Source: an uncultured Candidatus Peribacteria bacterium
Lineage (GTDB): Bacteria > Patescibacteriota > Gracilibacteria > Peribacterales > Peribacteraceae
Assembly (NCBI GenBank): GCA_964608325.1
Contig: CAZSMX010000006.1
Span: 1,426-65,425, forward strand
Length of the DNA stretch: 64,000 bases
Direction of reading: 5' to 3'
The notes beneath the pieces were generated by a model. That model made no database searches. It worked only from the letters and a program-made list of their open reading frames with translations, and was not told the origin of the DNA. This document shows, piece after piece, positions 25,374 to 54,656 of this stretch (position 1 is its first letter; each line of letters opens with the position of its first letter). The position numbers and the translations under genes were made by a program.

Positions 25374-25886
25374 ATGCGCGCCGCCTTCTTCCTATTTTTC
25401 AGTTTCCTGTCCATTCCCGTCTCGTTCGCCCACACGGGCGGTCTTTCTTTCGAACGGCAAATAAAGGACGTGTTAATCGATATCGGTTTCGGCACGGATA
25501 TCCCGACGGTAGGTTCCGCACCCACCTATTCCTTCGATCTCTTCAATACCGCGGATCCCAATGCCTACGCGTTCGAACCGTTCAGCAAGGTCCACGTGCG
25601 CGTCTTCAAGGATCGCCAGGAACTGCTGAGTAGGACGTTGGAAAACAACGGCCTCAACGTACCCTTTCTTTCGTTCCAGTATAAGGAAGCAGGGGACTAT
25701 TCCATGGCGGTAAAATTCGAACGCAAGGGAAAGGATTCGGTGGATGCTTCCTTTGGCTACCGCGTCATGCCGGCCCCGACGCCCTCCGTGAATGTCTCGC
25801 CGGGCATGACGGTCATGATCTTAGGCGTCGTTACGGCCATCATTGCCTTCCTGTTGTACAAGTTGGTCGTCGCGGTGCGCGCGTAG
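25374..25886 (+). CDS. hypothetical secreted protein with C-terminal membrane anchor
   Basis: Signal-like MRAAFFLFFSFLSIPVSFA and C-terminal TM MTVMILGVVTAIIAFLLYKLVV. Confidence 0.6.
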   Translation: MRAAFFLFFSFLSIPVSFAHTGGLSFERQIKDVLIDIGFGTDIPTVGSAPTYSFDLFNTADPNAYAFEPFSKVHVRVFKDRQELLSRTLENNGLNVPFLSFQYKEAGDYSMAVKFERKGKDSVDASFGYRVMPAPTPSVNVSPGMTVMILGVVTAIIAFLLYKLVVAVRA

Positions 25887-25888
25887 CC

Positions 25889-26257
25889 TTACCCTACGTA
25901 CGACGTCACGCGTTCGAAGATCGCCTGCAGCGGCATCTTGTGCTTCACTATGTATTCCTTCACTCCGGACATGGTGCACTTCTCGCGGTAGTCCGCTGTA
26001 TCGTAGTTCGTCAGTACGACCACGGGTACGTCCGGGTTACTCTTCTGCAGGTGTTCCAACACGGCGAATCCGTCCGCCTTGGGCATGCGCAAATCAAGGA
26101 CGAGGAGATCGGGTTTCGTGCGGTTGATGGCGTTGATGGCTTCCTCCCCGTTCTCCGCGGCACGTACCACCACGTCCAGGTCGCGGTTATCGAACTCGAT
26201 ACTCATCAGCTTCATCATGGTCAGGTCATCGTCTGCTACAAGGATGTTTTTAGACAT
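25889..26257 (-). CDS. stand-alone response-regulator receiver domain (CheY-like)
   Basis: ILVADDD...DLLVLDLRMPKADGF...VVVLTN receiver motifs. No output domain. Confidence 0.85.
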   Translation of the reverse strand: MSKNILVADDDLTMMKLMSIEFDNRDLDVVVRAAENGEEAINAINRTKPDLLVLDLRMPKADGFAVLEHLQKSNPDVPVVVLTNYDTADYREKCTMSGVKEYIVKHKMPLQAIFERVTSYVG

Positions 26258-27311: not shown

Positions 27312-27809
27312 ATGACGCGATCCAAAGAGCAGGTATTTTCCTTGGTCGAAGGTCTCCTTGCCGAAACGGGCCTTCCCGTCGTCGCGAAAGACGATGCACG
27401 TCCTTGGGGCGGCTTCTTCGTCATCGACGAGGCGCATGCCGCGGACTTTATGAAGAAGTTTTTTCCGAGGGAGGATCCCGCGCAGTTCGCGGGAAAGAAG
27501 ATCAGCCCGAAGATGCTGCTCGTGGCGCCGAAGATGCGGCTCTCCTGGCAGTACCACCATCGCCGCGCGGAACTCTGGCGCGTGTATGAAGGCGAGGTGT
27601 TCGTGATGATGAGCGACACCGACGACGAAACCGAGCCGAAGAAATTCGTGCCCGGAGATCTCGTTCGCCTGAAGCAAGGGGAGCGTCACCGATTGATTGG
27701 CGCGGACGGCTGGGGGATCGTCGCGGAGATCTGGCAGCACACGGATCCGAACAATTCCAGCGACGAAAACGACATCGTGCGTGTGCAGGATGATTTCGGG
27801 AGGGGGTAA
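27312..27809 (+). CDS. cupin-fold protein, type II phosphomannose isomerase-like
   Basis: RPWGGF...SWQYHHRRAELWRV.EGEV...GERHRL cupin motifs. Confidence 0.7.
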   Translation: MTRSKEQVFSLVEGLLAETGLPVVAKDDARPWGGFFVIDEAHAADFMKKFFPREDPAQFAGKKISPKMLLVAPKMRLSWQYHHRRAELWRVYEGEVFVMMSDTDDETEPKKFVPGDLVRLKQGERHRLIGADGWGIVAEIWQHTDPNNSSDENDIVRVQDDFGRG

Positions 27810-27862
27810 GGGGGAGGGTAATGGAGCTTCCTATGTGAGCGTATCAGGAACTGGTATTAATA

Positions 27863-27891
27863 TTGACAAAATTTATAAATTTGATATTTTA
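27863..27891 (+). promoter_or_regulatory. candidate promoter (TTGACA, 17-nt spacer, ATTTTA) for the Gly-rich peptide gene
   Basis: TTGACA at 27863-27868 in an AT-rich stretch. The -10 is weak. Confidence 0.35.
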
Positions 27892-27925
27892 ATTAAAATT
27901 GCTGAAGATGCATTAAGACGGTCTT

Positions 27926-28072
27926 ATGCCAGCAATTCAAAGCTCTTTCAGTGGAGGTCATATGCCTGGTGGCAATGGCGGAAACGGAACGGGTTCCGGT
28001 GGTCAAGGTGGCGGCGGTGGCCGCGGTGGCTCTGGAACCGGTAGCGGCCAAAGTGGAGGCCGTGGAAAGTAG
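27926..28072 (+). CDS. 48-aa glycine-rich peptide
   Basis: ATG..TAG reading MPAIQSSFSGGHMPGGNGGNGTGSGGQGGGGGRGGSGTGSGQSGGRGK. GGN codon periodicity. Flanked by a promoter-like element and a strong terminator. Too short for the ORF track. Confidence 0.5.
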   Translation: MPAIQSSFSGGHMPGGNGGNGTGSGGQGGGGGRGGSGTGSGQSGGRGK

Positions 28073-28110
28073 TCTAGTGTAGGAATCCTCGTGATTCTTC
28101 CACGCCAAGG

Positions 28111-28146
28111 TCCCCGGTTAGCAATAACCGGGGACTGTTTTATCTC
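28111..28146 (+). terminator. rho-independent terminator after the Gly-rich peptide gene
   Basis: 10-bp stem tccccggtta/taaccgggga with gcaa loop, followed by ctgtttta. Confidence 0.85.
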
Positions 28147-28174
28147 TCATTTCTATTTGGGTATAATCCCATCT

Positions 28175-28945
28175 ATGTCAGCAATCAGTCTTTCGAAATT
28201 GGCACAGGAAAAACGTGCATCCATTGTGCGGATCGTGTGCATGCGCGGTAAAAAAATCGCCATGACCGGCACTGGTTTTTTTATTGATGACTCCTATGTT
28301 CTGACATGCGCGCATGTCTTGCTTTGCAATGCGAATATAGCTTCTCTTCTAGGGGCAGGAGATAAATTAACTAAAGAATCCACATCTTTGGAACAGAAAT
28401 TAAAGACGCACTTTCTAAAATCAAAAATCACCGTTTTTGTGGAAACTGAGAAAGGAAAGAGAATGAAGGCAAAGTCAGTGTTATTCAATGGTTCAATGGA
28501 TGTTGGTTTGGTTTCCATTCAAAGTCGCGGCGTTCCCGTTGAAGTGAAAATGCGTCCGACAAAAATAGGGGAAACGATAATGTCCCTCGGTTTTCCTTAC
28601 GCAATACAAACTGCAGACGATAAGTTCCCTTTTTCGGCGGTGCAGGGGAATGTCATGTCTCAACCGAAGGTTCAAATCGGGGGCTACTTGCGTCGATCAT
28701 TCACACAAATTTATTGTCCTTCGATGGGTGGTGCTTCCGGATCCCCGGTTTTTGATGAGCAGGGCTTTGTTATTGGCATCCTAAATGGCCAGATGAGATG
28801 GGGGGATGACAATTTTTTGTTTAGAGATGAAGACGCAAAAGATTCATCTAAAATAATAAAGGATGCGTTTCATGTGCCACTTCCCTATGGTTTCATTACC
28901 CCCCTTCAGAAAATTTGGCCCAAAGTCGAGAGTCTGAAGTCATAA
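28175..28945 (+). CDS. trypsin-like (S1/Trypsin_2) serine protease without signal peptide
   Basis: Catalytic triad contexts LTCAHV, MDVGLVSI and MGGASGSPVF. TATAAT at 28162-28167 lies just upstream of the ATG. Low-GC gene. Confidence 0.8.
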   Translation: MSAISLSKLAQEKRASIVRIVCMRGKKIAMTGTGFFIDDSYVLTCAHVLLCNANIASLLGAGDKLTKESTSLEQKLKTHFLKSKITVFVETEKGKRMKAKSVLFNGSMDVGLVSIQSRGVPVEVKMRPTKIGETIMSLGFPYAIQTADDKFPFSAVQGNVMSQPKVQIGGYLRRSFTQIYCPSMGGASGSPVFDEQGFVIGILNGQMRWGDDNFLFRDEDAKDSSKIIKDAFHVPLPYGFITPLQKIWPKVESLKS

Positions 28946-28958
28946 TAATTTTTTTTAG

Positions 28959-29083
28959 TGGAGCCGACGACCGGATTTGAACCGGTGATCCGCCTTAGGC
29001 GGATTTACGATACCTATGAGCTGCGCTTTGGTTATTTCAGAACGTCTTTGCAAGCAAAGACGTAGCAACTGAGCTACGTCGGC
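28959..29083 (-). tRNA. tRNA-Thr(CGU)-like unit 1: D-loop insertion plus altered anticodon-stem/variable region (possible pseudogene or novel tRNA-like RNA)
   Basis: Same acceptor, T arm, CCA and ATCGTAA loop as the canonical copy. 47 nt replace the 6-nt D-loop segment, and ACCTAGGGTC is replaced by the hairpin ATCCGCCTAAGGCGGATC. Confidence 0.5.
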
Positions 29084-29101: not shown

Positions 29102-29218
29102 TGGAGCCGACGACCGGATTTGAACCGGTGACCCTAGGTTTACGATACCTATGAGCTGCGCTTTGGTTATTTTAGAACGTCTTTGCAAGCAAAGACGTAG
29201 CAACTGAGCTACGTCGGC
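29102..29218 (-). tRNA. tRNA-Thr(CGU)-like unit 2 with net 41-nt D-loop insertion (possible pseudogene or novel tRNA-like RNA)
   Basis: Identical to the canonical copy except that GTAGAG is replaced by CTACGTCTTTGCTTGCAAAGACGTTCTAAAATAACCAAAGCGCAGCT. Confidence 0.5.
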
Positions 29219-29235: not shown

Positions 29236-29311
29236 TGGAGCCGACGACCGGATTTGAACCGGTGACCCTAGGTTTACGATACCTATGCTCTACCAACTGA
29301 GCTACGTCGGC
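29236..29311 (-). tRNA. tRNA-Thr (anticodon CGU), CCA encoded
   Basis: GCCGACGTAGCTCAGTTGGTAGAGCATAGGTATCGTAAACCTAGGGTCACCGGTTCAAATCCGGTCGTCGGCTCCA folds as a 76-nt cloverleaf. Confidence 0.95.
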
Positions 29312-48980: not shown

Positions 48981-50012
48981 ATGTCTTCCCTTCCCGATTC
49001 CGTATTTGAAAAAGCCCTGGCGGCCAAAGCATCCGATGTCCACATCGTCGCCGGAGCTCCTTTATTGTTCCGCATCGACGGCGTGCTCACGCCGCAGACG
49101 CAGACCGATGTGAGTCCGAAGGAAGTGGAAGCATTCGTGAAGGACCTCCTGGGTACCGCGGCTTTTGAGCGTTTCCAGAAGGAGAAGGAGATCGACATGG
49201 CTCATGGATTGCCTAACGGCGTCCGCCTGCGCGTGAACTGCCACTTCGAACGCGGCAACATGGCCGTCGCCGCGCGCATCATTCCCGTGGAAATCCCCAA
49301 CCTCGCGGATGTCGATCTCACGGACATCGCGACGCAGGTCGTGGGACTTCGCGAAGGACTCATCCTGTTCACCGGTCCCACGGGATCCGGAAAGAGCACG
49401 TCGCTCGCAGCACTGTTGCAGAGCATCAATGAATCGCGCGCCGAGAATATCATCACTTTGGAAGACCCGATCGAGTTCCTCTTCCCGAAGGGCAAGGGCG
49501 TCATTCGCCAGCGCCAGTACATGGAAGATTTCCTCTCGTTCCCCGAGGCGATGAAGCGCATCCTGCGCCAGGACCCGAATATCATCATGGTCGGCGAAAT
49601 GCGCGATCCCGAAACGATCGCCGCTGCCCTCACGCTTGCTGAGACGGGTCACCTTGTCCTTGCGACGCTCCATACGCCGAACGTCATGCAGACCATCGAC
49701 CGCATCGTGGATGTCTTCCCGCCTCACCAGCAGCCGCAGGTGCGTTCACAGCTCGCGCTATCGCTCAAAACCATCGTCGCACAGAAACTTCTGCCGAAGG
49801 AAGGCGGGGGACGCGTGGCGCTTCGCGAAGTGCTCATCAATACGCCTGCGGCGCAGAACATCATCCGCGATAACCGCGTACAGGAGCTTGCGTCGGTCTT
49901 GCAGACGGGCAAGGAGCTTGGCATGCGTTCCTTCGAGGCAGATCTGAAGCGCCTGAAGAAGGACGGGCTCATCAGCGAGGAGACGCTGGAGCTTATGATG
50001 GGAAACCTGTAA
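48981..50012 (+). CDS. pilT: type IV pilus retraction ATPase PilT
   Basis: Walker A GPTGSGKST, Asp/His boxes and TLHT motif. 343 aa. Confidence 0.92.
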   Translation: MSSLPDSVFEKALAAKASDVHIVAGAPLLFRIDGVLTPQTQTDVSPKEVEAFVKDLLGTAAFERFQKEKEIDMAHGLPNGVRLRVNCHFERGNMAVAARIIPVEIPNLADVDLTDIATQVVGLREGLILFTGPTGSGKSTSLAALLQSINESRAENIITLEDPIEFLFPKGKGVIRQRQYMEDFLSFPEAMKRILRQDPNIIMVGEMRDPETIAAALTLAETGHLVLATLHTPNVMQTIDRIVDVFPPHQQPQVRSQLALSLKTIVAQKLLPKEGGGRVALREVLINTPAAQNIIRDNRVQELASVLQTGKELGMRSFEADLKRLKKDGLISEETLELMMGNL

Positions 50013-50139: not shown

Positions 50140-51711
50140 ATGAACAGCCTCCCTTCCAGCATCGAGACGTATTTCCAAGAGGCGGGCTTCTCCGGCACGG
50201 AGATCGCCATCATCAAGAAGCTTGTGGAAGGGGATGCCATGACCTTGCGCGACCTCGCGTTCAAGACGGGCAAGAGCACGGGAGTGTTGGACCAGGCGAT
50301 GAAGAAGCTCCTGAAAAAGAAGATCGTCGTGCGTGAGATGATCAACGGCACGCCGAAGTACGTCCTGCATTCGTTGGAATCCGTGTCGAAGTGGCTGCAG
50401 GATGATATGAAGCAGAAGAAGAACGTTCTGGAATTGCGTCATCAAAACTTCGAATCATTCATCTCTTCCATCACGTCTGGCAAGAGGCGTCCCGAGATGC
50501 AGTTCTTCCAGGGTGCGGAAGGCCTGAAGAAGGCCTACACGCTGCTGCTGGAAAAGGGGAATGACTTCGTACAGTACGGCCCTGTTCTGTATACGGAAAC
50601 CGAGGATCCTTTGCGGGAATTCAATGTCCAGTATTTCCGCGAGCGCCGGAAAAGGAACATCTTCCTCCGGGTCATCGCGCACAACACGCCGCTTGGGCGT
50701 CGATTCCAGAACAGGGATCCGTTCGAATACAGGAAGACCGTACTCGTGAACGAGAACCTGTATCCGTTCGCCTTTGAGAAGATTGTCGTCGGAAATACGG
50801 TGGCCTGCTTCCAGCATGAAACGCAGGAGGCGTGCTTTATCGAATATAAGGAACTTGCTGAACGAGAGCGTCAGTTCTTCGAGAGGCTCTGGAATATGAA
50901 GTTGCAGCATCCTGACGAGGGGGTGGAACCGGTAGTGGATCTCAATCCATTGCCGATCGTTTCCGTGTCGATGACGGTGCCGACGAAAACGAAGGTACTT
51001 TCGCAAGTGAGGGAGTTCTTCTTGAGTCCAAAGAGTATTTTTGCATTCGTTATTTGTGGCATTCTCTCGGCTGGCGTGACGTATTTTTTGTACCAACATA
51101 GCTTGTCATTAAATCTTGAGAGAATTCAGGAAAAAGCAAAGGTGGTCGCTGCAACTGGTGCACTCCAATTTAGTATTAACGATTTAAATCAATTACATAC
51201 TCTTGAAGATACGAAAAAAAGTGAGTATTCAAAAATTGTTTCATTATTAAATGAAATTCGTAACCAGGATAAAGATATAAAATATGCTTACATTATGAGG
51301 TTAACTGAGGAGGAAGGTGTTTGGGAATTTATTGCAGACGCAGATTCTCTTGATCCTTCTGCAAAAAAAGATATTACCGGCGATGGAAAAATTGATGATA
51401 AAGATTTGTTATCTCCACCTGGTCAAAAATATGACACCAAAGCCTTTCCTCCAATTGAAGATAATAAGCAGGCATTAATACATCCAATAATCCTAGGTCC
51501 ATTTGTTGATCATTGGGGAAGTCTTATTTCTGGCTGGGCACCAATAAGAGATGAAAATGGAAAAGGGGTAGCAATATTAGGAATAGATATTTTTAGTGAA
51601 ACCGCTGTAAAATTATCAAAACAAGCTTTCGCCTCAATTTCATACTTTCTAGGATTTTTCTTGGTTTTCATACTGTTTAGGCTAATTGCTTTCAATAAAT
51701 TCTTGTTATAA
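50140..51711 (+). CDS. membrane-tethered TrmB-like winged-helix regulator fused to a periplasmic Cache/PDC-like sensor domain
   Basis: N-terminus EIAIIKKLVEGDAMTLRDLAFKTGKSTGVLDQAMKKLLKKKIV (wHTH). Two TM segments flank a domain paralogous to the sensor of the kinase at 52684. GC content drops inside the gene. Confidence 0.7.
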   Translation: MNSLPSSIETYFQEAGFSGTEIAIIKKLVEGDAMTLRDLAFKTGKSTGVLDQAMKKLLKKKIVVREMINGTPKYVLHSLESVSKWLQDDMKQKKNVLELRHQNFESFISSITSGKRRPEMQFFQGAEGLKKAYTLLLEKGNDFVQYGPVLYTETEDPLREFNVQYFRERRKRNIFLRVIAHNTPLGRRFQNRDPFEYRKTVLVNENLYPFAFEKIVVGNTVACFQHETQEACFIEYKELAERERQFFERLWNMKLQHPDEGVEPVVDLNPLPIVSVSMTVPTKTKVLSQVREFFLSPKSIFAFVICGILSAGVTYFLYQHSLSLNLERIQEKAKVVAATGALQFSINDLNQLHTLEDTKKSEYSKIVSLLNEIRNQDKDIKYAYIMRLTEEEGVWEFIADADSLDPSAKKDITGDGKIDDKDLLSPPGQKYDTKAFPPIEDNKQALIHPIILGPFVDHWGSLISGWAPIRDENGKGVAILGIDIFSETAVKLSKQAFASISYFLGFFLVFILFRLIAFNKFLL

Positions 51712-51797
51712 ACCACATAAGATACTTAATAAACTTATAGACAAATGCTAAATAAAATAAGCATGTAGTTTTGAATTTGTAGTGATATTATTTATAT

Positions 51798-52613
51798 ATG
51801 AGCAAATCTAAAACTGAAGGTAACTATTCCCCAAAAGATTGGGATCAGATTGAGGACATAAATGAAGTTAAAGTAATTACTGCAAATCTGGAGAAGTTAA
51901 ATAAAGTGCATGTTTATGATCATGCTGAACTCTATGATATTGCTTATCCTGGTTATGAAGGAGACATGAGTTTTTATTTAAAGAAAGGTAGGGTTGGGAA
52001 GGTGCTCTATTTAGGCATAGGATCCGGAAGGATATTTTCTGAGCTTGTAAAGGTTAATCAAAATATCATAGGAATTGATAACTCAGTTGAAATGTTGAAC
52101 CTTCTTTATAAAAAATTTCCCCATATCAACAAAAATCAAGCCATCTTAAAAGATGCGCTGGTTGACGAATTTCCAACAGAAGAATTTGATTTAGTGTTAG
52201 CGCCATACTCTTTTATGCAATGTTTCGAAGTAGAGCAGTTAGAAATTTTACTTTCAAATGTTAAAAAATGGCTAAAGCCCAACGGTAAATTTTATACTGA
52301 TACTTTCTCAACATTTTTAATTCCTTTTAGAAAGAAAGGTCTTGAGACAATTAGAGAAAAAATAGGAGATATCGATTTCCAAATTTTTATTAAATACAAT
52401 CACATTCTACAAAAAATGAGAGAATGGGTTCTAATTAAGAAGGGCGAAAAAGAGTATTTAATTGAAATGAACTTAAATTATTACTTCCCTCATGAAATCT
52501 TTCCTATCGCAAAAAAAGCGCATTTAAAAAATATAAAAGTTTTTGGCGATTATTCAGAGGATATTTTTGATCCAACTTTGCATAACGTAATTAGCTACGA
52601 AATGCAAAAATAA
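51798..52613 (+). CDS. class I SAM-dependent methyltransferase
   Basis: Motif I VLYLGIGSGRI, followed by IGIDNS. Low-GC. Confidence 0.75.
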   Translation: MSKSKTEGNYSPKDWDQIEDINEVKVITANLEKLNKVHVYDHAELYDIAYPGYEGDMSFYLKKGRVGKVLYLGIGSGRIFSELVKVNQNIIGIDNSVEMLNLLYKKFPHINKNQAILKDALVDEFPTEEFDLVLAPYSFMQCFEVEQLEILLSNVKKWLKPNGKFYTDTFSTFLIPFRKKGLETIREKIGDIDFQIFIKYNHILQKMREWVLIKKGEKEYLIEMNLNYYFPHEIFPIAKKAHLKNIKVFGDYSEDIFDPTLHNVISYEMQK

Positions 52614-52683
52614 GGTCAATTATGATGCTTATTTGCTGTTTTACTAGCTTTAAAAGTAAAGGACTTTATGATATAATGTATTG

Positions 52684-54135
52684 ATGTCTAGAAATACAAA
52701 TAGCCAGGCTGTGACCGATCAAAAAGCAGCAGGGAAATTCCATTCCTTGCGGATATATTTATTGCTATTTGTGTTTTTAACTTTGACGGTAATAACTACC
52801 CTTGTTCTTTACAATAAAACTCAAGAATTCTTTAGGTGGAGTTTAAATGAAAGAATGCTGGCTTTAGCATCTATTGCTTCAACAGAATTTGAAGCTGAAG
52901 ATCTCAATAAAATCACTGGTCCTGAAAGTATCCATTTAAATGTTTATAAAGAAACAGTAATTAAATTGCAGAGAATTCGAAATAAGACTGATAAATTGAA
53001 ATACATTTACATTTTAAGAGAAACAAACAATCCGAATGAATTAGAGTTCGTTGCCGATGCAGATTCTCTAGAGCCTGATAAACCGATTGATCTTAATGAA
53101 GATGGGATCGTAGATGAGGAAGATGCACTTACATTTCCAGGAGATATATACGACATTTCTGAATTTCCAGAGTTTAAAGAGGCAGCATTTGATAAATCTT
53201 TTGTAGATCCTGAGCTTACCTCTGATCAATGGGGAACTTTTCTTTCTGGGACTTCGCCGATAATTGGTTTCAGTAAAGATGGAAAAAGATATGTTATTGG
53301 TTTAGATCTTGATGTTTCGGAATATTTGAATTTAACAAATCTTGCTTTGGTGCCATTCGCATTGTTCGTTGTATTTCTTTTGTTAATACTCACAACTTTG
53401 ACGCTGATTCTTAAAAGATTGTGGAAAACGCAAGTAAAATTATTGGCAGAACTAGATATTCAAAAAGATGAGCTATTAAGCATTGTGAGTCACCAGCTAG
53501 CAACTCCGGTTTCATCTATTAAATGGTATTTGGAAATGATGAAGGATGGAGATCTGGGTAAATTAAATGATGAACAAAAAGCACATGTTACTTCTATGCA
53601 AGAAGTAGCTGTGAATCTTTCAGATCTTGTAAGCATGATCCTCGATGTGTCCCGTATTCAGTTGGGGCGTATGCATATCGAGAAGCAAGACCTCGATCTC
53701 AGTGCTTTCTTTAAGGAGATTCTTGAAATTATCGAGCCGAAAGCTCTCGAAAAGAAAGTGAATTTTATTAAAAAAATTCCCACATCTTTCCCTGCTGCAA
53801 AACTTGATAAGAGGTATACACATATGACAATTGAGAACCTGCTGAGTAATGCTGTGAAATACACACCGGAGAATGGGAATGTAGATTTCACAGTAACAAT
53901 TACTGGCAATATATTGCGTTGCGTTGTGAAAGATACTGGAGTTGGTATCCCGAAGGCTGATCAAGAAAAGATTTTTGGAAAATTGTTCCGTGCCAGTAAC
54001 GTACGCAATAGCGTAGATGGAAATGGATTTGGATTATATGTTGCAAAAGGCGCTGTAGAAGCTCAAGGGGGAAAAATTTGGTTTGAAAGTACAGAAGGAA
54101 AAGGAACTACTTTCTTTATTGAATTACCTTTGTAA
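52684..54135 (+). CDS. sensor histidine kinase (TM - Cache/PDC-like sensor - TM - HisKA - HATPase_c)
   Basis: H-box SIVSHQLATP, N-box LLSNAVKYT, G1 DTGVGI and G2 GNGFGL. Confidence 0.9.
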   Translation: MSRNTNSQAVTDQKAAGKFHSLRIYLLLFVFLTLTVITTLVLYNKTQEFFRWSLNERMLALASIASTEFEAEDLNKITGPESIHLNVYKETVIKLQRIRNKTDKLKYIYILRETNNPNELEFVADADSLEPDKPIDLNEDGIVDEEDALTFPGDIYDISEFPEFKEAAFDKSFVDPELTSDQWGTFLSGTSPIIGFSKDGKRYVIGLDLDVSEYLNLTNLALVPFALFVVFLLLILTTLTLILKRLWKTQVKLLAELDIQKDELLSIVSHQLATPVSSIKWYLEMMKDGDLGKLNDEQKAHVTSMQEVAVNLSDLVSMILDVSRIQLGRMHIEKQDLDLSAFFKEILEIIEPKALEKKVNFIKKIPTSFPAAKLDKRYTHMTIENLLSNAVKYTPENGNVDFTVTITGNILRCVVKDTGVGIPKADQEKIFGKLFRASNVRNSVDGNGFGLYVAKGAVEAQGGKIWFESTEGKGTTFFIELPL

Positions 54136-54139
54136 AAAA

Positions 54140-54161
54140 CCCACCAAGTTGCCTTGGTGGG
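54140..54161. terminator. shared hairpin between the kinase (+) and DMT (-) genes
   Basis: 9-bp stem cccaccaag/cttggtggg with ttgc loop. An A-run on the plus side gives the T-tail for the minus-strand gene. Confidence 0.7.
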
Positions 54162-54185
54162 TAAATATCGATGAGAGTGATGAGA

Positions 54186-54656
54186 TTATTTTGCAGTACC
54201 TATAAGATACAAAGCACCTCCTCCTAAGAACCAAGCTACAACGATCTGTAGTGATGGAAATTTGTGCTCAAAGATTGCGGTAAAAAGAGCTGCGGCGACC
54301 GGCATTAATGAGTAGGCCATCGTAAGCGTTAAAGTTCCTACATTTTGATGAAGTGCCTGAAAATGTGAGCTGGCTGCAATGAAGGATGCAACAATCATCA
54401 AGAATATAAAACTAGATTGTTTTAAGTCTGGGGTAACAATACTAGTCTTATAAAAAAACAACGTAGTAAGAGAAAAAATTGCCATCCCCACCGCATAACA
54501 TGCAGTGATGAATTTAGGGGGGAGACTGGTTAATTTTAAATCCGTTATTGTGATTTCCAATGCATAGAAGAGCATTGCGATCACACACATGAACATACCA
54601 CTTTTCATATAAGTACTCCTATACTCTCTTGAAACGATATTTGAAAGACCTATCAA
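54186..54656 (-). CDS. small EamA/DMT-like membrane protein (about 5 TM)
   Basis: 156-aa all-hydrophobic ORF. Low-GC. Confidence 0.6.
   Translation of the reverse strand: MIGLSNIVSREYRSTYMKSGMFMCVIAMLFYALEITITDLKLTSLPPKFITACYAVGMAIFSLTTLFFYKTSIVTPDLKQSSFIFLMIVASFIAASSHFQALHQNVGTLTLTMAYSLMPVAAALFTAIFEHKFPSLQIVVAWFLGGGALYLIGTAK

What the first reader, a model, noticed from the sequence alone, without database searches (positions are those of the whole stretch)
27840..28945. Low-GC islet with a self-contained glycine-rich 48-codon gene next to a signal-less trypsin-like protease
Seen in sequence: base composition drops sharply after 27810. A 147-nt ORF (27926-28072) encodes MPAIQSSFSGGHMPGGNGGNGTGSGGQGGGGGRGGSGTGSGQSGGRGK, with 23 Gly of 48 residues, no Cys, and an S/T/N/Q/R sprinkling. 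It is preceded by TTGACA (27863) and followed by a perfect 10-bp-stem terminator (28111-28146). Immediately downstream, with its own TATAAT (28162), is a 256-aa protease with an intact His/Asp/Ser triad and no signal peptide or TM segment. Established knowledge: Gly-rich, Ser/Thr/Asn-containing small precursors occur among microcins and other bacteriocins, and cytoplasmic trypsin-like proteases appear in several phage-defence and abortive-infection contexts. Inference: this could be a peptide plus processing or regulatory protease pair, an accessory toxin/defence module, or a small RNA gene whose GGN periodicity is incidental. Its position directly beside the tRNA-Thr triplet suggests acquisition by integration.
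Basis: partly seen in the sequence, partly recalled or inferred. Interest (0 to 1): 0.65.

Follow-up and report, generated by a model that had tools for sequence, protein, structure and literature searches.

The report
Glycine-rich micropeptide paired with cytoplasmic protease
A 36-residue glycine-rich peptide gene, real and strongly conserved, sits in front of a cytoplasmic serine protease gene, and the pair recurs in five lineages of uncultured Peribacteria-like (candidate phyla radiation, CPR) bacteria, but its function is unknown and matches no described system.

Summary
The peptide gene most likely starts at the second ATG (27962), which follows a GGAGG ribosome-binding site, and encodes 36 aa: MPGGNGGNGTGSGGQGGGGGRGGSGTGSGQSGGRGK. 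It is translated sequence, not an RNA gene. Against a relative whose protease is only 74% identical, all 13 nucleotide differences fall on third codon positions and none changes the peptide.

The layout is Gly-rich micro-ORF, then hairpin with a T-run, then a 256-aa Trypsin_2 protease. It recurs in five protease lineages, each in a different genomic neighbourhood. Five other lineages have the protease alone.

The protease has an HtrA/DegS/MarP-like fold with an intact His47/Asp109/Ser188 triad. It has no PDZ domain, signal peptide or membrane segment.

The module's GC3 is 0.42-0.46, against 0.70-0.76 for host genes. In another Peribacteria genome the protease lies next to pilT. The module therefore looks relocated or acquired, but no integrase or att repeat was found.

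A wastewater metatranscriptome contig covers the peptide gene and runs through the terminator.

My best reading is a two-gene operon in which the protease acts on the peptide. That step is inferred, not shown. The module fails the microcin, attenuator, toxin-antitoxin and known-defence membership tests.

The parts
27863..27890 (+). Sigma-70-like promoter of the peptide gene: TTGACA, 16 nt, TATTTT, with TG before the -10 hexamer
   Evidence: The scan scores it 10 of 12. TTGACA and the TTTGAT.TTTT block are conserved in L002 and L003, while the sequence to the left of them is not.
27897..27961 (+). 5' leader. It holds a long hairpin at 27897-27937 and the GGAGG Shine-Dalgarno at 27953-27957. CUCU at 27943-27946 can pair with GGAG.
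   Evidence: The window and L003 give the same dot-bracket fold, with compensatory changes (G-C to A-U; U-A to C-G). The fold z-score is only -0.9, so the structure rests on covariation between two sequences. The 1-nt indel in L003 breaks the upstream reading frame.
27962..28072 (+). Micropeptide gene, 36 codons plus TAG: MPGGNGGNGTGSGGQGGGGGRGGSGTGSGQSGGRGK
   Evidence: All 13 differences from L003 are at codon position 3, with no amino-acid change. The other five frames show 3-13 changes. Homologous peptides occur in L007, L089, P0011 and L113. An RNA contig covers 27942-28246 at depth 21.4.
28077..28103 (+). First hairpin after the ORF (GUG.AGGAAUC / GAUUCUU.CAC)
   Evidence: It appears in the minimum-energy folds of the window and L003. 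The outer pairs change GUG/CAC to GCG/CGC in a compensatory way.
28109..28146 (+). Intrinsic-terminator-like hairpin (12-bp stem, GCAA loop) followed by a T-run. It probably terminates only partially.
   Evidence: Found by the scan. L003 keeps the stem through compensatory changes, though its T-run is weaker. L007, L089 and L113 have an equivalent G+C-rich hairpin with a T-run between peptide and protease. The RNA contig runs through it to 28246.
28162..28167 (+). TATAAT, 7 nt before the protease ATG. It could be an internal promoter giving a leaderless mRNA. This is uncertain.
   Evidence: Read directly from the sequence. No -35 partner was reported. It is not conserved in L003. There is no Shine-Dalgarno before ATG 28175.
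28175..28945 (+). 256-aa cytoplasmic serine protease of the chymotrypsin fold (Trypsin_2), with no PDZ domain
   Evidence: Pfam 4.9e-19. The His47/Asp109/Ser188 triad is invariant. The AF2 model has pLDDT 85. The nearest solved structures are the MarP (Rv3671c), DegS and HtrA protease domains, TM about 0.6. It belongs to a family of about 55 full-length representatives.

Best explanation
This is a self-contained two-gene operon.

Shown:
- The first gene is translated into a 36-aa Gly-rich, weakly cationic peptide with no hydrophobic residues after Met1. AF2 predicts no structure for it. It is under strong purifying selection.
- It has been linked to a cytoplasmic HtrA/MarP-like serine protease without a PDZ domain across the whole breadth of that protease family.
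- The pair sits in different chromosomal places in different genomes.

Inferred from the anatomy: a strong sigma-70-like promoter and a GGAGG site drive the peptide. Two hairpins, the second terminator-like, let only part of the transcription continue into the protease gene. The result would be much peptide and little enzyme.

Inferred mechanism: the protease acts on the peptide. It either processes it or degrades it to keep its level in check, so the peptide would be the active agent and the protease its maturation or neutralising enzyme. This fits the existence of protease-only loci, which resemble orphan processing or immunity genes. The one peptide homologue recovered by searching with the peptide profile was also next to a protease.

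What the peptide itself does is not known. Candidates are an antimicrobial or toxic role, metal binding through the (S/T)HGGG repeats of the other four lineages, or some other role.
For: Coding and selection: all 13 changes against L003 are synonymous, while the protease is 74% and about 69% identical at the amino-acid and nucleotide levels. The N-terminal M-x-x-G/N-N-G-x-N motif, the central SGG..GGG core and the C-terminal Lys/Arg are shared across lineages.

Linkage: the order peptide, hairpin, protease occurs in these settings.
- Window, L002 and L003: a cupin gene upstream and tRNA-Thr downstream.
- L007: the end of rpoB upstream and ssb downstream.
- L089.
- The P0011 contig: an RF-1-like gene upstream and an amidase gene downstream.
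- L113: a CAP-domain gene and an EamA gene as neighbours.
.

Two cases tested the link in advance. P0011 was found by peptide profile alone and proved to have a 256-aa Trypsin_2 gene 108 nt downstream. The L113 peptide was predicted from the Trp/Arg-rich wrong-frame N-terminal extension of P0013 and then found.

Peptide-bearing loci are scattered over the protease tree, including its deep branches. No third gene is conserved around the pair.

Protease: fold, triad and lack of targeting signals.

Expression: a metatranscriptome contig covers 27942-28246 at depth 21.4. The protease body shows depth about 3, and most neighbouring genes 0-3.

Protease-only loci keep the catalytic triad: L004, L005, L006, L008 and L111.
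Against: - No test shows that the protease binds or cuts the peptide.
- HtrA-type enzymes usually prefer aliphatic P1 residues, which the peptide lacks.
- Half of the lineages sampled lack the peptide next to the protease, so the protease must have a role without it.
- The His-rich repeats of four lineages are absent from the window's peptide, so no single chemical property beyond Gly richness and the termini is conserved.
- Neither product has an export signal, and no transporter lies nearby. This weakens any extracellular role.
- The RNA evidence comes from assembled contigs, whose depth is a poor measure and which may include DNA.
- In L113 the stop codon is lost (TAA to TAC), so at least one copy may be decaying.
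Confidence: 0.4

Rival explanations
1. Glycine-sensing leader peptide (ribosome-mediated attenuation). On this reading the micro-ORF acts only in cis. Ribosomes slow down on its 21 Gly codons when charged tRNA-Gly is scarce, which changes RNA folding and lets transcription pass the terminator into the protease gene. The protease would then recycle protein in an organism that makes few amino acids.
For: - The ORF has 21 Gly among its 36 codons and is followed by two hairpins, the second with a T-run, then by the regulated gene.
- The same layout occurs in all five lineages.
- Losing the ORF (L111 compared with L007) leaves a working protease gene directly behind the shared upstream motif.
- Peribacteria are inferred to obtain amino acids by degrading proteins (PMC4736985).
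Against: - No alternative antiterminator pairing with the terminator's 5' arm was found in any of four folded loci.
- Non-Gly residues and both termini are conserved: none of the 15 non-Gly residues changed against L003, and the C-terminal Lys/Arg is shared. Attenuator peptides are normally free to vary outside the sensed codons.
- Gly codon choice drifts freely among GGT, GGC, GGA and GGG.
- The paper infers that Peribacteria can make glycine.
- The downstream gene has no link to glycine metabolism.
Confidence: 0.15
2. Toxin-antitoxin-like or defence module. On this reading the protease is a dangerous effector held in check by an excess of the peptide, acting as a pseudo-substrate inhibitor. 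The protease is released on phage infection or stress.
For: - It is a small two-gene module with atypical GC, a patchy distribution and varied insertion sites among housekeeping genes.
- The layout gives more of the first product than the second.
- The protease domain resembles those fused to defence proteins in PADLOC: RT-Protease_XI at 3.3e-14, also LmuA, HamA and PDC-M35A.
Against: - Five lineages carry the protease with an intact triad and no peptide gene beside it. That should be lethal if the peptide were an essential antitoxin.
- PADLOC matches cover only the generic protease domain, and no partner genes are present.
- The module is not in a defence island.
- It has no relatives in phage, plasmid or viral collections.
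Confidence: 0.12
3. Neighbours with no functional tie. The peptide has a role of its own, for instance as a metal-binding or stress-related disordered peptide. It shares a transcription unit with the protease by historical accident.
For: - The protease occurs without the peptide in half of the lineages.
- The (S/T)HGGG repeats in four lineages recall the Cu(II)-binding HGGGW unit of prion-protein octarepeats and Gly/His-rich antimicrobial peptides. This resemblance comes from my own knowledge and was not tested.
- AF2 gives no fold.
Against: - The adjacency survives protease divergence down to about 35% identity and at least five changes of genomic neighbourhood, with no other gene conserved around it.
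- The only peptide homologue found independently was again next to the protease.
Confidence: 0.2
4. Non-coding RNA gene or chance ORF. GGN periodicity keeps several frames open, and what is conserved is an RNA.
For: - Four frames across the region are open, and gene callers chose different frames in different contigs.
- The leader and the 3' hairpins are conserved, with compensatory changes.
Against: - Substitutions follow a strict third-position pattern in one frame only, 13 of 13. If changes fell evenly over the three codon positions the chance would be about (1/3)^13.
- A GGAGG site and an ATG are conserved.
- No Rfam family passes its threshold. The snoR20a match scores 31.4 bits against a gathering score of 42 and lies in the AT-rich leader.
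Confidence: 0.03

Closest known systems
Bacteriocin and RiPP structural-gene operons, such as Gly-rich microcin B17 McbA and lantibiotic structural genes followed by a leaky terminator
   Same: A very small, highly expressed structural gene comes first. A hairpin lowers transcription of the downstream enzyme gene. The peptide is rich in Gly, Ser, Thr and Asn. A protease is encoded beside it.
   Different: There is no leader/core split and no double-glycine site. No Cys occurs in the window's peptide. No cyclodehydratase, exporter or immunity gene appears in any of five neighbourhoods. Both products lack export signals. The comparison with named systems rests on my own knowledge, while the absence of partner genes was tested here.
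HtrA/DegP/DegS and MarP (Rv3671c) serine proteases, MEROPS family S1
   Same: They share the chymotrypsin fold and the His-Asp-Ser triad. They are the best matches in the PDB by sequence (3k6z, 1.5e-11) and by fold (3k6y and 3lgi, TM about 0.6).
   Different: This protease has no PDZ domain, signal peptide or N-terminal membrane domain. NCBIfam scores are far below the cut-offs: MarP 49 against 250, Do family 35 against 416. It also has a family-specific NGQMRWGDDNF...VPLPYGF C-terminal part.
Amino-acid-sensing attenuator leader peptides (hisL, trpL, pheL type)
   Same: A short ORF is loaded with codons for one amino acid, is followed by a terminator and is placed ahead of the regulated gene.
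   Different: No antiterminator was found. The peptide sequence is conserved beyond the Gly codons. The downstream gene is a protease, not a biosynthetic or tRNA-charging gene.
Eukaryotic Gly-rich and Gly/His-rich antimicrobial peptides (shepherins, armadillidin, holotricin-3) and the HGGGW copper-binding prion octarepeat
   Same: The composition is similar, and so is the roughly five-residue x-H-G-G-G periodicity seen in the L007, L089, P0011 and L113 peptides.
   Different: This is resemblance by composition only, recalled from knowledge and not tested. There is no sequence homology. The window's own peptide has no His.

Membership tests
Microcin / Gly-rich bacteriocin precursor (MccB17-like or class II microcin) | N-terminal leader with a processing site, distinct from the core peptide | tested here: not met
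   Conservation starts at Met1, and the Gly-rich part begins at residue 3. The upstream 12 codons are out of frame in L003.
Microcin / Gly-rich bacteriocin precursor (MccB17-like or class II microcin) | Adjacent modification, export (ABC/C39) and immunity genes | tested here: not met
   The neighbours are a cupin gene and tRNA-Thr, rpoB and ssb, an RF-1-like gene and an amidase gene, or a CAP-domain gene and an EamA gene. None is shared between contexts.
Microcin / Gly-rich bacteriocin precursor (MccB17-like or class II microcin) | Antibacterial activity of the mature peptide | not testable with these tools
   This needs synthesis or expression and a growth-inhibition assay.
Ribosome-mediated attenuation leader peptide | Short ORF enriched in one amino acid's codons, upstream of an intrinsic terminator | tested here: met
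   21 of 36 codons are GGN. The terminator-like hairpin lies at 28109-28136 and is followed by a T-run.
Ribosome-mediated attenuation leader peptide | Mutually exclusive antiterminator structure coupled to ribosome position | tested here: not met
   Minimum-energy folds of four loci show two independent hairpins and no pairing that competes with the terminator's 5' arm. Suboptimal structures were not searched exhaustively.
Ribosome-mediated attenuation leader peptide | Peptide sequence free to vary outside the sensed codons | tested here: not met
   There are no amino-acid changes against 13 synonymous changes. The termini and Ser/Asn positions are shared across lineages.
HtrA/DegP/DegS family (S1C) | Chymotrypsin-fold protease domain with a His-Asp-Ser triad | tested here: met
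   H47, D109 and S188 are invariant. Foldseek gives probability 1.0 to the DegS, DegP and HtrA1 protease domains.
HtrA/DegP/DegS family (S1C) | One or more C-terminal PDZ domains, and targeting to the envelope | tested here: not met
   Only Trypsin_2 matches, over residues 32-202 of 256. There is no hydrophobic segment. TIGR02037 scores 35 bits against a cut-off of 416.
MarP family serine protease | N-terminal membrane domain plus protease domain, and a score above the NF033740 cut-off | tested here: not met
   The score is 49 bits against a cut-off of 250. Only profile positions 235-353 of 390 are matched.
Toxin-antitoxin pair (peptide as antitoxin, protease as toxin) | The toxin gene is not maintained without its antitoxin | tested here: not met
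   Protease-only loci with an intact triad are L004/L009, L005, L006, L008 and L111. A peptide gene elsewhere in those genomes cannot be excluded.
Known anti-phage systems with trypsin-like domains (PADLOC RT-Protease_XI, Lamassu LmuA, Hachiman HamA, Avs1) | Full-length match to the system's protein, and presence of its partner genes or domains | tested here: not met
   The matches cover only the protease part, for instance profile positions 328-484 of 506 at E 3.3e-14. No reverse transcriptase, SMC or helicase gene is present.
Small non-coding RNA (any Rfam family) | Covariance-model match at or above the gathering score | tested here: not met
   Only a snoR20a match at 31.4 bits against a gathering score of 42, in the AT-rich leader. 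Nothing passes at gathering threshold.

The most novel reading that the evidence does not exclude
The Gly-rich peptides are an undescribed family of bacterial effector micropeptides, for instance toxic or antimicrobial agents or metal binders. Each would be paired with a dedicated cytoplasmic S1 protease that matures or neutralises it. Together they would form a mobile two-gene module specific to Peribacteria-like bacteria of the candidate phyla radiation. Standard gene callers largely miss the family because they pick the wrong reading frame.
Probability: 0.3. Interest if true: 0.7.

Novelty: new variant of a known kind. Interest (0 to 1): 0.55.

Why it matters
Candidate-phyla-radiation bacteria are uncultured, have small genomes and carry many genes of unknown function. 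A micropeptide that is more conserved than its neighbours, probably highly transcribed and tied to a dedicated protease is a concrete pair to test. Both products can be made in the laboratory.

The case also exposes an annotation blind spot. GGN-periodic ORFs are open in several frames, and in public data this gene was variously called in the wrong frame, fused to the protease as a false Trp/Arg-rich N-terminus, or called from the second Met. Only one member besides the query could be recovered from a 5.8-billion-protein database. If the peptide proves to be an effector, for instance antimicrobial or metal-binding, it would add a new peptide class from a poorly explored part of the bacterial tree.

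Tried and rejected
- Peptide profile searches of the 5.8-billion-protein set returned only P0011.
- Scans of genome and metagenome contigs with the protease profile gave one close relative, a Ca. Peribacteria genome assembled from a metagenome. About 100 distant Trypsin_2 loci also came back, and none has a comparable small Gly-rich ORF beside the match.
- Viral contigs, phage records and plasmid records hold no relatives.
- Pfam, NCBIfam and PADLOC give nothing for the peptide.
- AF2 on the peptide alone gave pLDDT 60 and no secondary structure. This neither supports nor excludes a polyproline-II or polyglycine-II bundle like snow-flea antifreeze protein. I considered that idea and dropped it for lack of evidence.
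- I looked for an antiterminator and for an att-type direct repeat of the tRNA 3' end at the left border of the islet. Neither was found.
- I considered stop-codon read-through fusing the peptide to the protease, because in the window the two ORFs are in frame with a single TAG between them. I rejected it because L003 has a second in-frame stop, and L007, L089 and L113 are out of frame.
- Five literature searches found no description of such a pair.
Full report
1. WHAT IS IN THE SEQUENCE

GC falls from about 0.60 in the cupin-type gene (27312-27809) to 0.36 in the spacer 27810-27961 and 0.43 in the protease gene. Third-position GC is 0.46 for the peptide ORF and 0.42 for the protease. Host genes (cupin, dprA, tpiA) have 0.70-0.76.

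TTGACA at 27863 is followed after 16 nt by TATTTT preceded by TG, a 10-of-12 match. The hairpin after the ORF is 28109-28136, with 12 pairs and loop GCAA, then GTTTTATCTC.

The protease gene runs from 28175 to 28945 and encodes 256 aa. It matches Pfam Trypsin_2 at 4.9e-19. His47, Asp109 and Ser188 are invariant in 11 homologues, and no segment is hydrophobic enough for a signal or membrane anchor.

Of the 'tRNA-Thr triplet', only 29236-29311 is an intact tRNA-Thr(CGT). The other two copies are tRNA-like, with an insert in the D-loop.

2. THE PEPTIDE GENE IS REAL, AND ITS START IS THE SECOND ATG

Three related contigs carry the same arrangement.
- L001 is identical to the window.
- L002 has a protease 96% identical.
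- L003 has a protease 74% identical.

Between the window and L003 the 111-nt ORF from ATG 27962 differs at 13 positions. All 13 are third codon positions of the Gly frame, and the peptide is unchanged. The same 13 changes would alter 13, 13, 12, 3 and 13 residues in the other five frames. L002 differs at 9 positions, 8 of them third positions, with two amino-acid changes. This rules out a non-coding RNA and shows strong purifying selection.

GGAGG lies 4 nt before ATG 27962 in all three contigs. More distant homologues begin at the equivalent Met. The product is therefore most likely the 36-mer MPGGNGGNGTGSGGQGGGGGRGGSGTGSGQSGGRGK.

Gene callers disagree on this region. They chose a Val/Ala-rich frame in L001 and L003, and the 36-codon Gly frame in L002.

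3. THE PAIR IS CONSERVED

The protease family is small. Word-based search of 5.8 billion proteins found 10 homologues. An exhaustive profile search of 1.84 billion representatives found 31 at E below 1e-30 and about 55 full-length members. The only close relative among 185,579 species genomes is a Candidatus Peribacteria genome assembled from a metagenome. The Peribacteria average GC of 58.5% (PMC4736985) fits the window's 56%.

A Gly-rich micro-ORF, then a G+C-rich hairpin with a T-run, then the protease gene occur in five lineages.
- The window clade.
- L007: MSKGNGGNCGGSHSGGSHGGGTHGGGSHGGGQSGGKGGR, with a GGAGG site. The end of rpoB is upstream and ssb downstream. The protease is 43-45% identical to the window's.
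- L089: MYQQNGNSGGAHSGGSHGGGTTGAGSYGGGK, with a protease 35-36% identical.
- A JGI contig found only through the peptide profile. P0011 ends in MRVYNSTGNCGGAHSGGSHGGGSHGGGSVGGK, and a 256-aa Trypsin_2 gene lies 108 nt downstream.
- L113. I predicted a peptide gene there because the annotated protease P0013 has a Trp/Arg-rich N-terminal extension, which is the signature of a GGN repeat read in the wrong frame. The DNA shows MLVYCNSGDGNCGGAHSGGSHGGGSHGAGSQGGGK. In that copy the stop codon reads TAC, so it may be decaying.

Other loci have the protease alone.
- L004/L009 and L006 have it directly after pilT.
- L005 has it after an IS200-type transposase fragment.
- L008 has it after an acetyltransferase gene.
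- L111 is the sister of L007. It shares an upstream motif with L007, which in L111 directly precedes the protease start.

On a neighbour-joining tree the peptide-bearing loci are interleaved with peptide-less ones and include the deepest branches. The simplest history is an old linkage with repeated loss or relocation of the peptide gene.

In the other loci scanned, ORFs this Gly-rich appeared only in front of proteases of this family.

4. ANATOMY AND EXPRESSION

The promoter hexamers, a leader hairpin (27897-27937) and both hairpins after the ORF are kept between the window and L003. Compensatory changes preserve the stems.

I found no alternative pairing that would act as an antiterminator.

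TATAAT at 28162 ends 7 nt before the protease ATG, and no Shine-Dalgarno precedes that ATG. The protease may be made from read-through transcripts, from a leaderless internal transcript, or both. This is unresolved, because the element is not conserved in L003.

The sequence is found in wastewater, sludge, bioreactor and aquaculture metagenomes. In one wastewater metatranscriptome a contig covers 27942-28246 at depth 21.4. It spans the peptide ORF, both hairpins and the start of the protease gene. In a sister run the protease body is covered at depth about 3. Most of the surrounding 20 kb is at 0-3. This agrees with a strongly transcribed peptide gene and partial read-through. Contig depth is a weak measure, though, and DNA carry-over cannot be excluded.

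5. THE PROTEASE

The AF2 model is confident, with pLDDT 85. Its best structural and sequence matches are the protease domains of M. tuberculosis MarP (Rv3671c), DegS, DegP/DegQ and HtrA1, at TM about 0.6 and 16-19% identity. It has no PDZ domain, and NCBIfam scores are far below every family cut-off. PADLOC matches are confined to the protease domains of larger defence proteins.

AF2 predicts no structure for the peptide alone.

6. ORIGIN OF THE ISLET

The atypical composition points to movement or acquisition, and so do the five different neighbourhoods of the module.

In the Peribacteria genome the protease lies between pilT and a histidine-kinase gene. The window has pilT at 48981-50012 and a histidine-kinase gene at 52681-54135, but no protease between them. 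The module in the window was therefore relocated or acquired.

Between the window and L002 the module is more alike than the flanking cupin gene. The protease is 94% identical at the nucleotide level and the spacer 100%, against 85% for the cupin gene.

No integrase is present, no att-like tRNA fragment sits at the left border, and no phage or plasmid relative exists. The mechanism of movement is unknown.

7. MECHANISM

Shown: the peptide gene is translated and constrained, it has a long-standing physical link to this protease family, and the protease is cytoplasmic and probably active.

Inferred: the module is an operon with much peptide and little enzyme, and the protease acts on the peptide. 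I favour the peptide as the active agent and the protease as its processing or neutralising enzyme (confidence 0.4). Protease-only loci are viable, and the only independently found peptide was again beside a protease.

The rivals are:
- a glycine-sensing attenuator (0.15), weakened by the missing antiterminator and by the conservation of non-Gly residues and both termini;
- a toxin-antitoxin or defence pair with the protease as toxin (0.12), weakened by the protease-only loci;
- unrelated neighbours (0.2), weakened by the persistence of the adjacency;
- a non-coding RNA (0.03), contradicted by the substitution pattern.

8. COMPARISON AND NOVELTY

The module works most like a bacteriocin or RiPP structural-gene operon, but it fails that family's defining tests: it has no leader, exporter, modification enzyme or immunity gene. 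The protease is a PDZ-less offshoot of the HtrA/MarP fold and is not a member of those families.

Five literature searches found no description of such a pair. I rate it a new variant of a known kind, meaning a small peptide gene with a companion protease. Its function is open.

Noticed in passing
window 28962-29083 and 29105-29218 (minus strand); L003 about 1540-1700: Two tandem tRNA-Thr-like copies keep the acceptor stem, T arm and, in copy 2, the anticodon arm. In both, the D-loop is replaced by an insert of about 47 nt with a perfect hairpin (ACGTCTTTGC/GCAAAGACGT). Copy 3 also has a new hairpin, CCGCCTAAGGCGG. L003 has one such copy, with compensatory changes in the insert hairpin. L002 has none. 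Both window copies fold much better than shuffled sequence (z about -5.5). They could be decayed duplications, tRNA-like RNAs or a D-loop intervening sequence.
   Followed up: partly
window about 50600-54500: This is a second and larger low-GC island (GC 0.30-0.40). It covers the 3' part of a 523-aa ORF with no Pfam match, a methyltransferase gene (51798-52613) and a histidine-kinase gene (52681-54135). It lies just after pilT, at the place where other Peribacteria carry the protease.
   Followed up: partly
P0009 (L089), P0013 (L113); gene calls in L001 and L003: Public annotations misread the GGN-periodic gene. In P0009 and P0013 it is fused in the wrong frame to the protease as a false Trp/Arg-rich N-terminal extension. 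In L001 and L003 it is called as a 43-47-aa Val/Ala-rich protein. This probably hides the peptide family from protein databases.
   Followed up: yes
L113 3104-3391: The stop codon of the peptide ORF reads TAC instead of TAA, so the ORF runs on through the terminator hairpin and overlaps the protease start. This could be a decaying copy, an assembly error or a longer product.
   Followed up: no
L007 696-722 compared with L111 165-196: Sister proteases P0008 and P0007 share an upstream motif (gtgctttagtgcgctgaagtggga). In L007 the peptide gene and terminator lie between the motif and the protease. In L111 the motif directly precedes the protease start. This looks like a clean deletion or insertion of the peptide cassette.
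   Followed up: partly
window 28070-28175: In the window the peptide ORF and the protease ORF are in the same frame, separated by a single TAG. This is not conserved: L003 has a second stop, and the other lineages are out of frame. It is probably coincidence.
   Followed up: yes
window 25400-26215: This is the most strongly covered stretch of the 20 kb examined in the metatranscriptomes, at depth 35-60. It spans a 170-aa ORF without a Pfam match (25374-25886) and part of the opposite-strand response-regulator gene.
   Followed up: no
metatranscriptome run X17, a 172-nt contig matching window 27995-28030: A different RNA contig matches 36 nt of the Gly-coding core with 3 mismatches, but its flanks are unrelated and also Gly-coding. 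This hints at further Gly-rich peptide genes in the same community.
   Followed up: no
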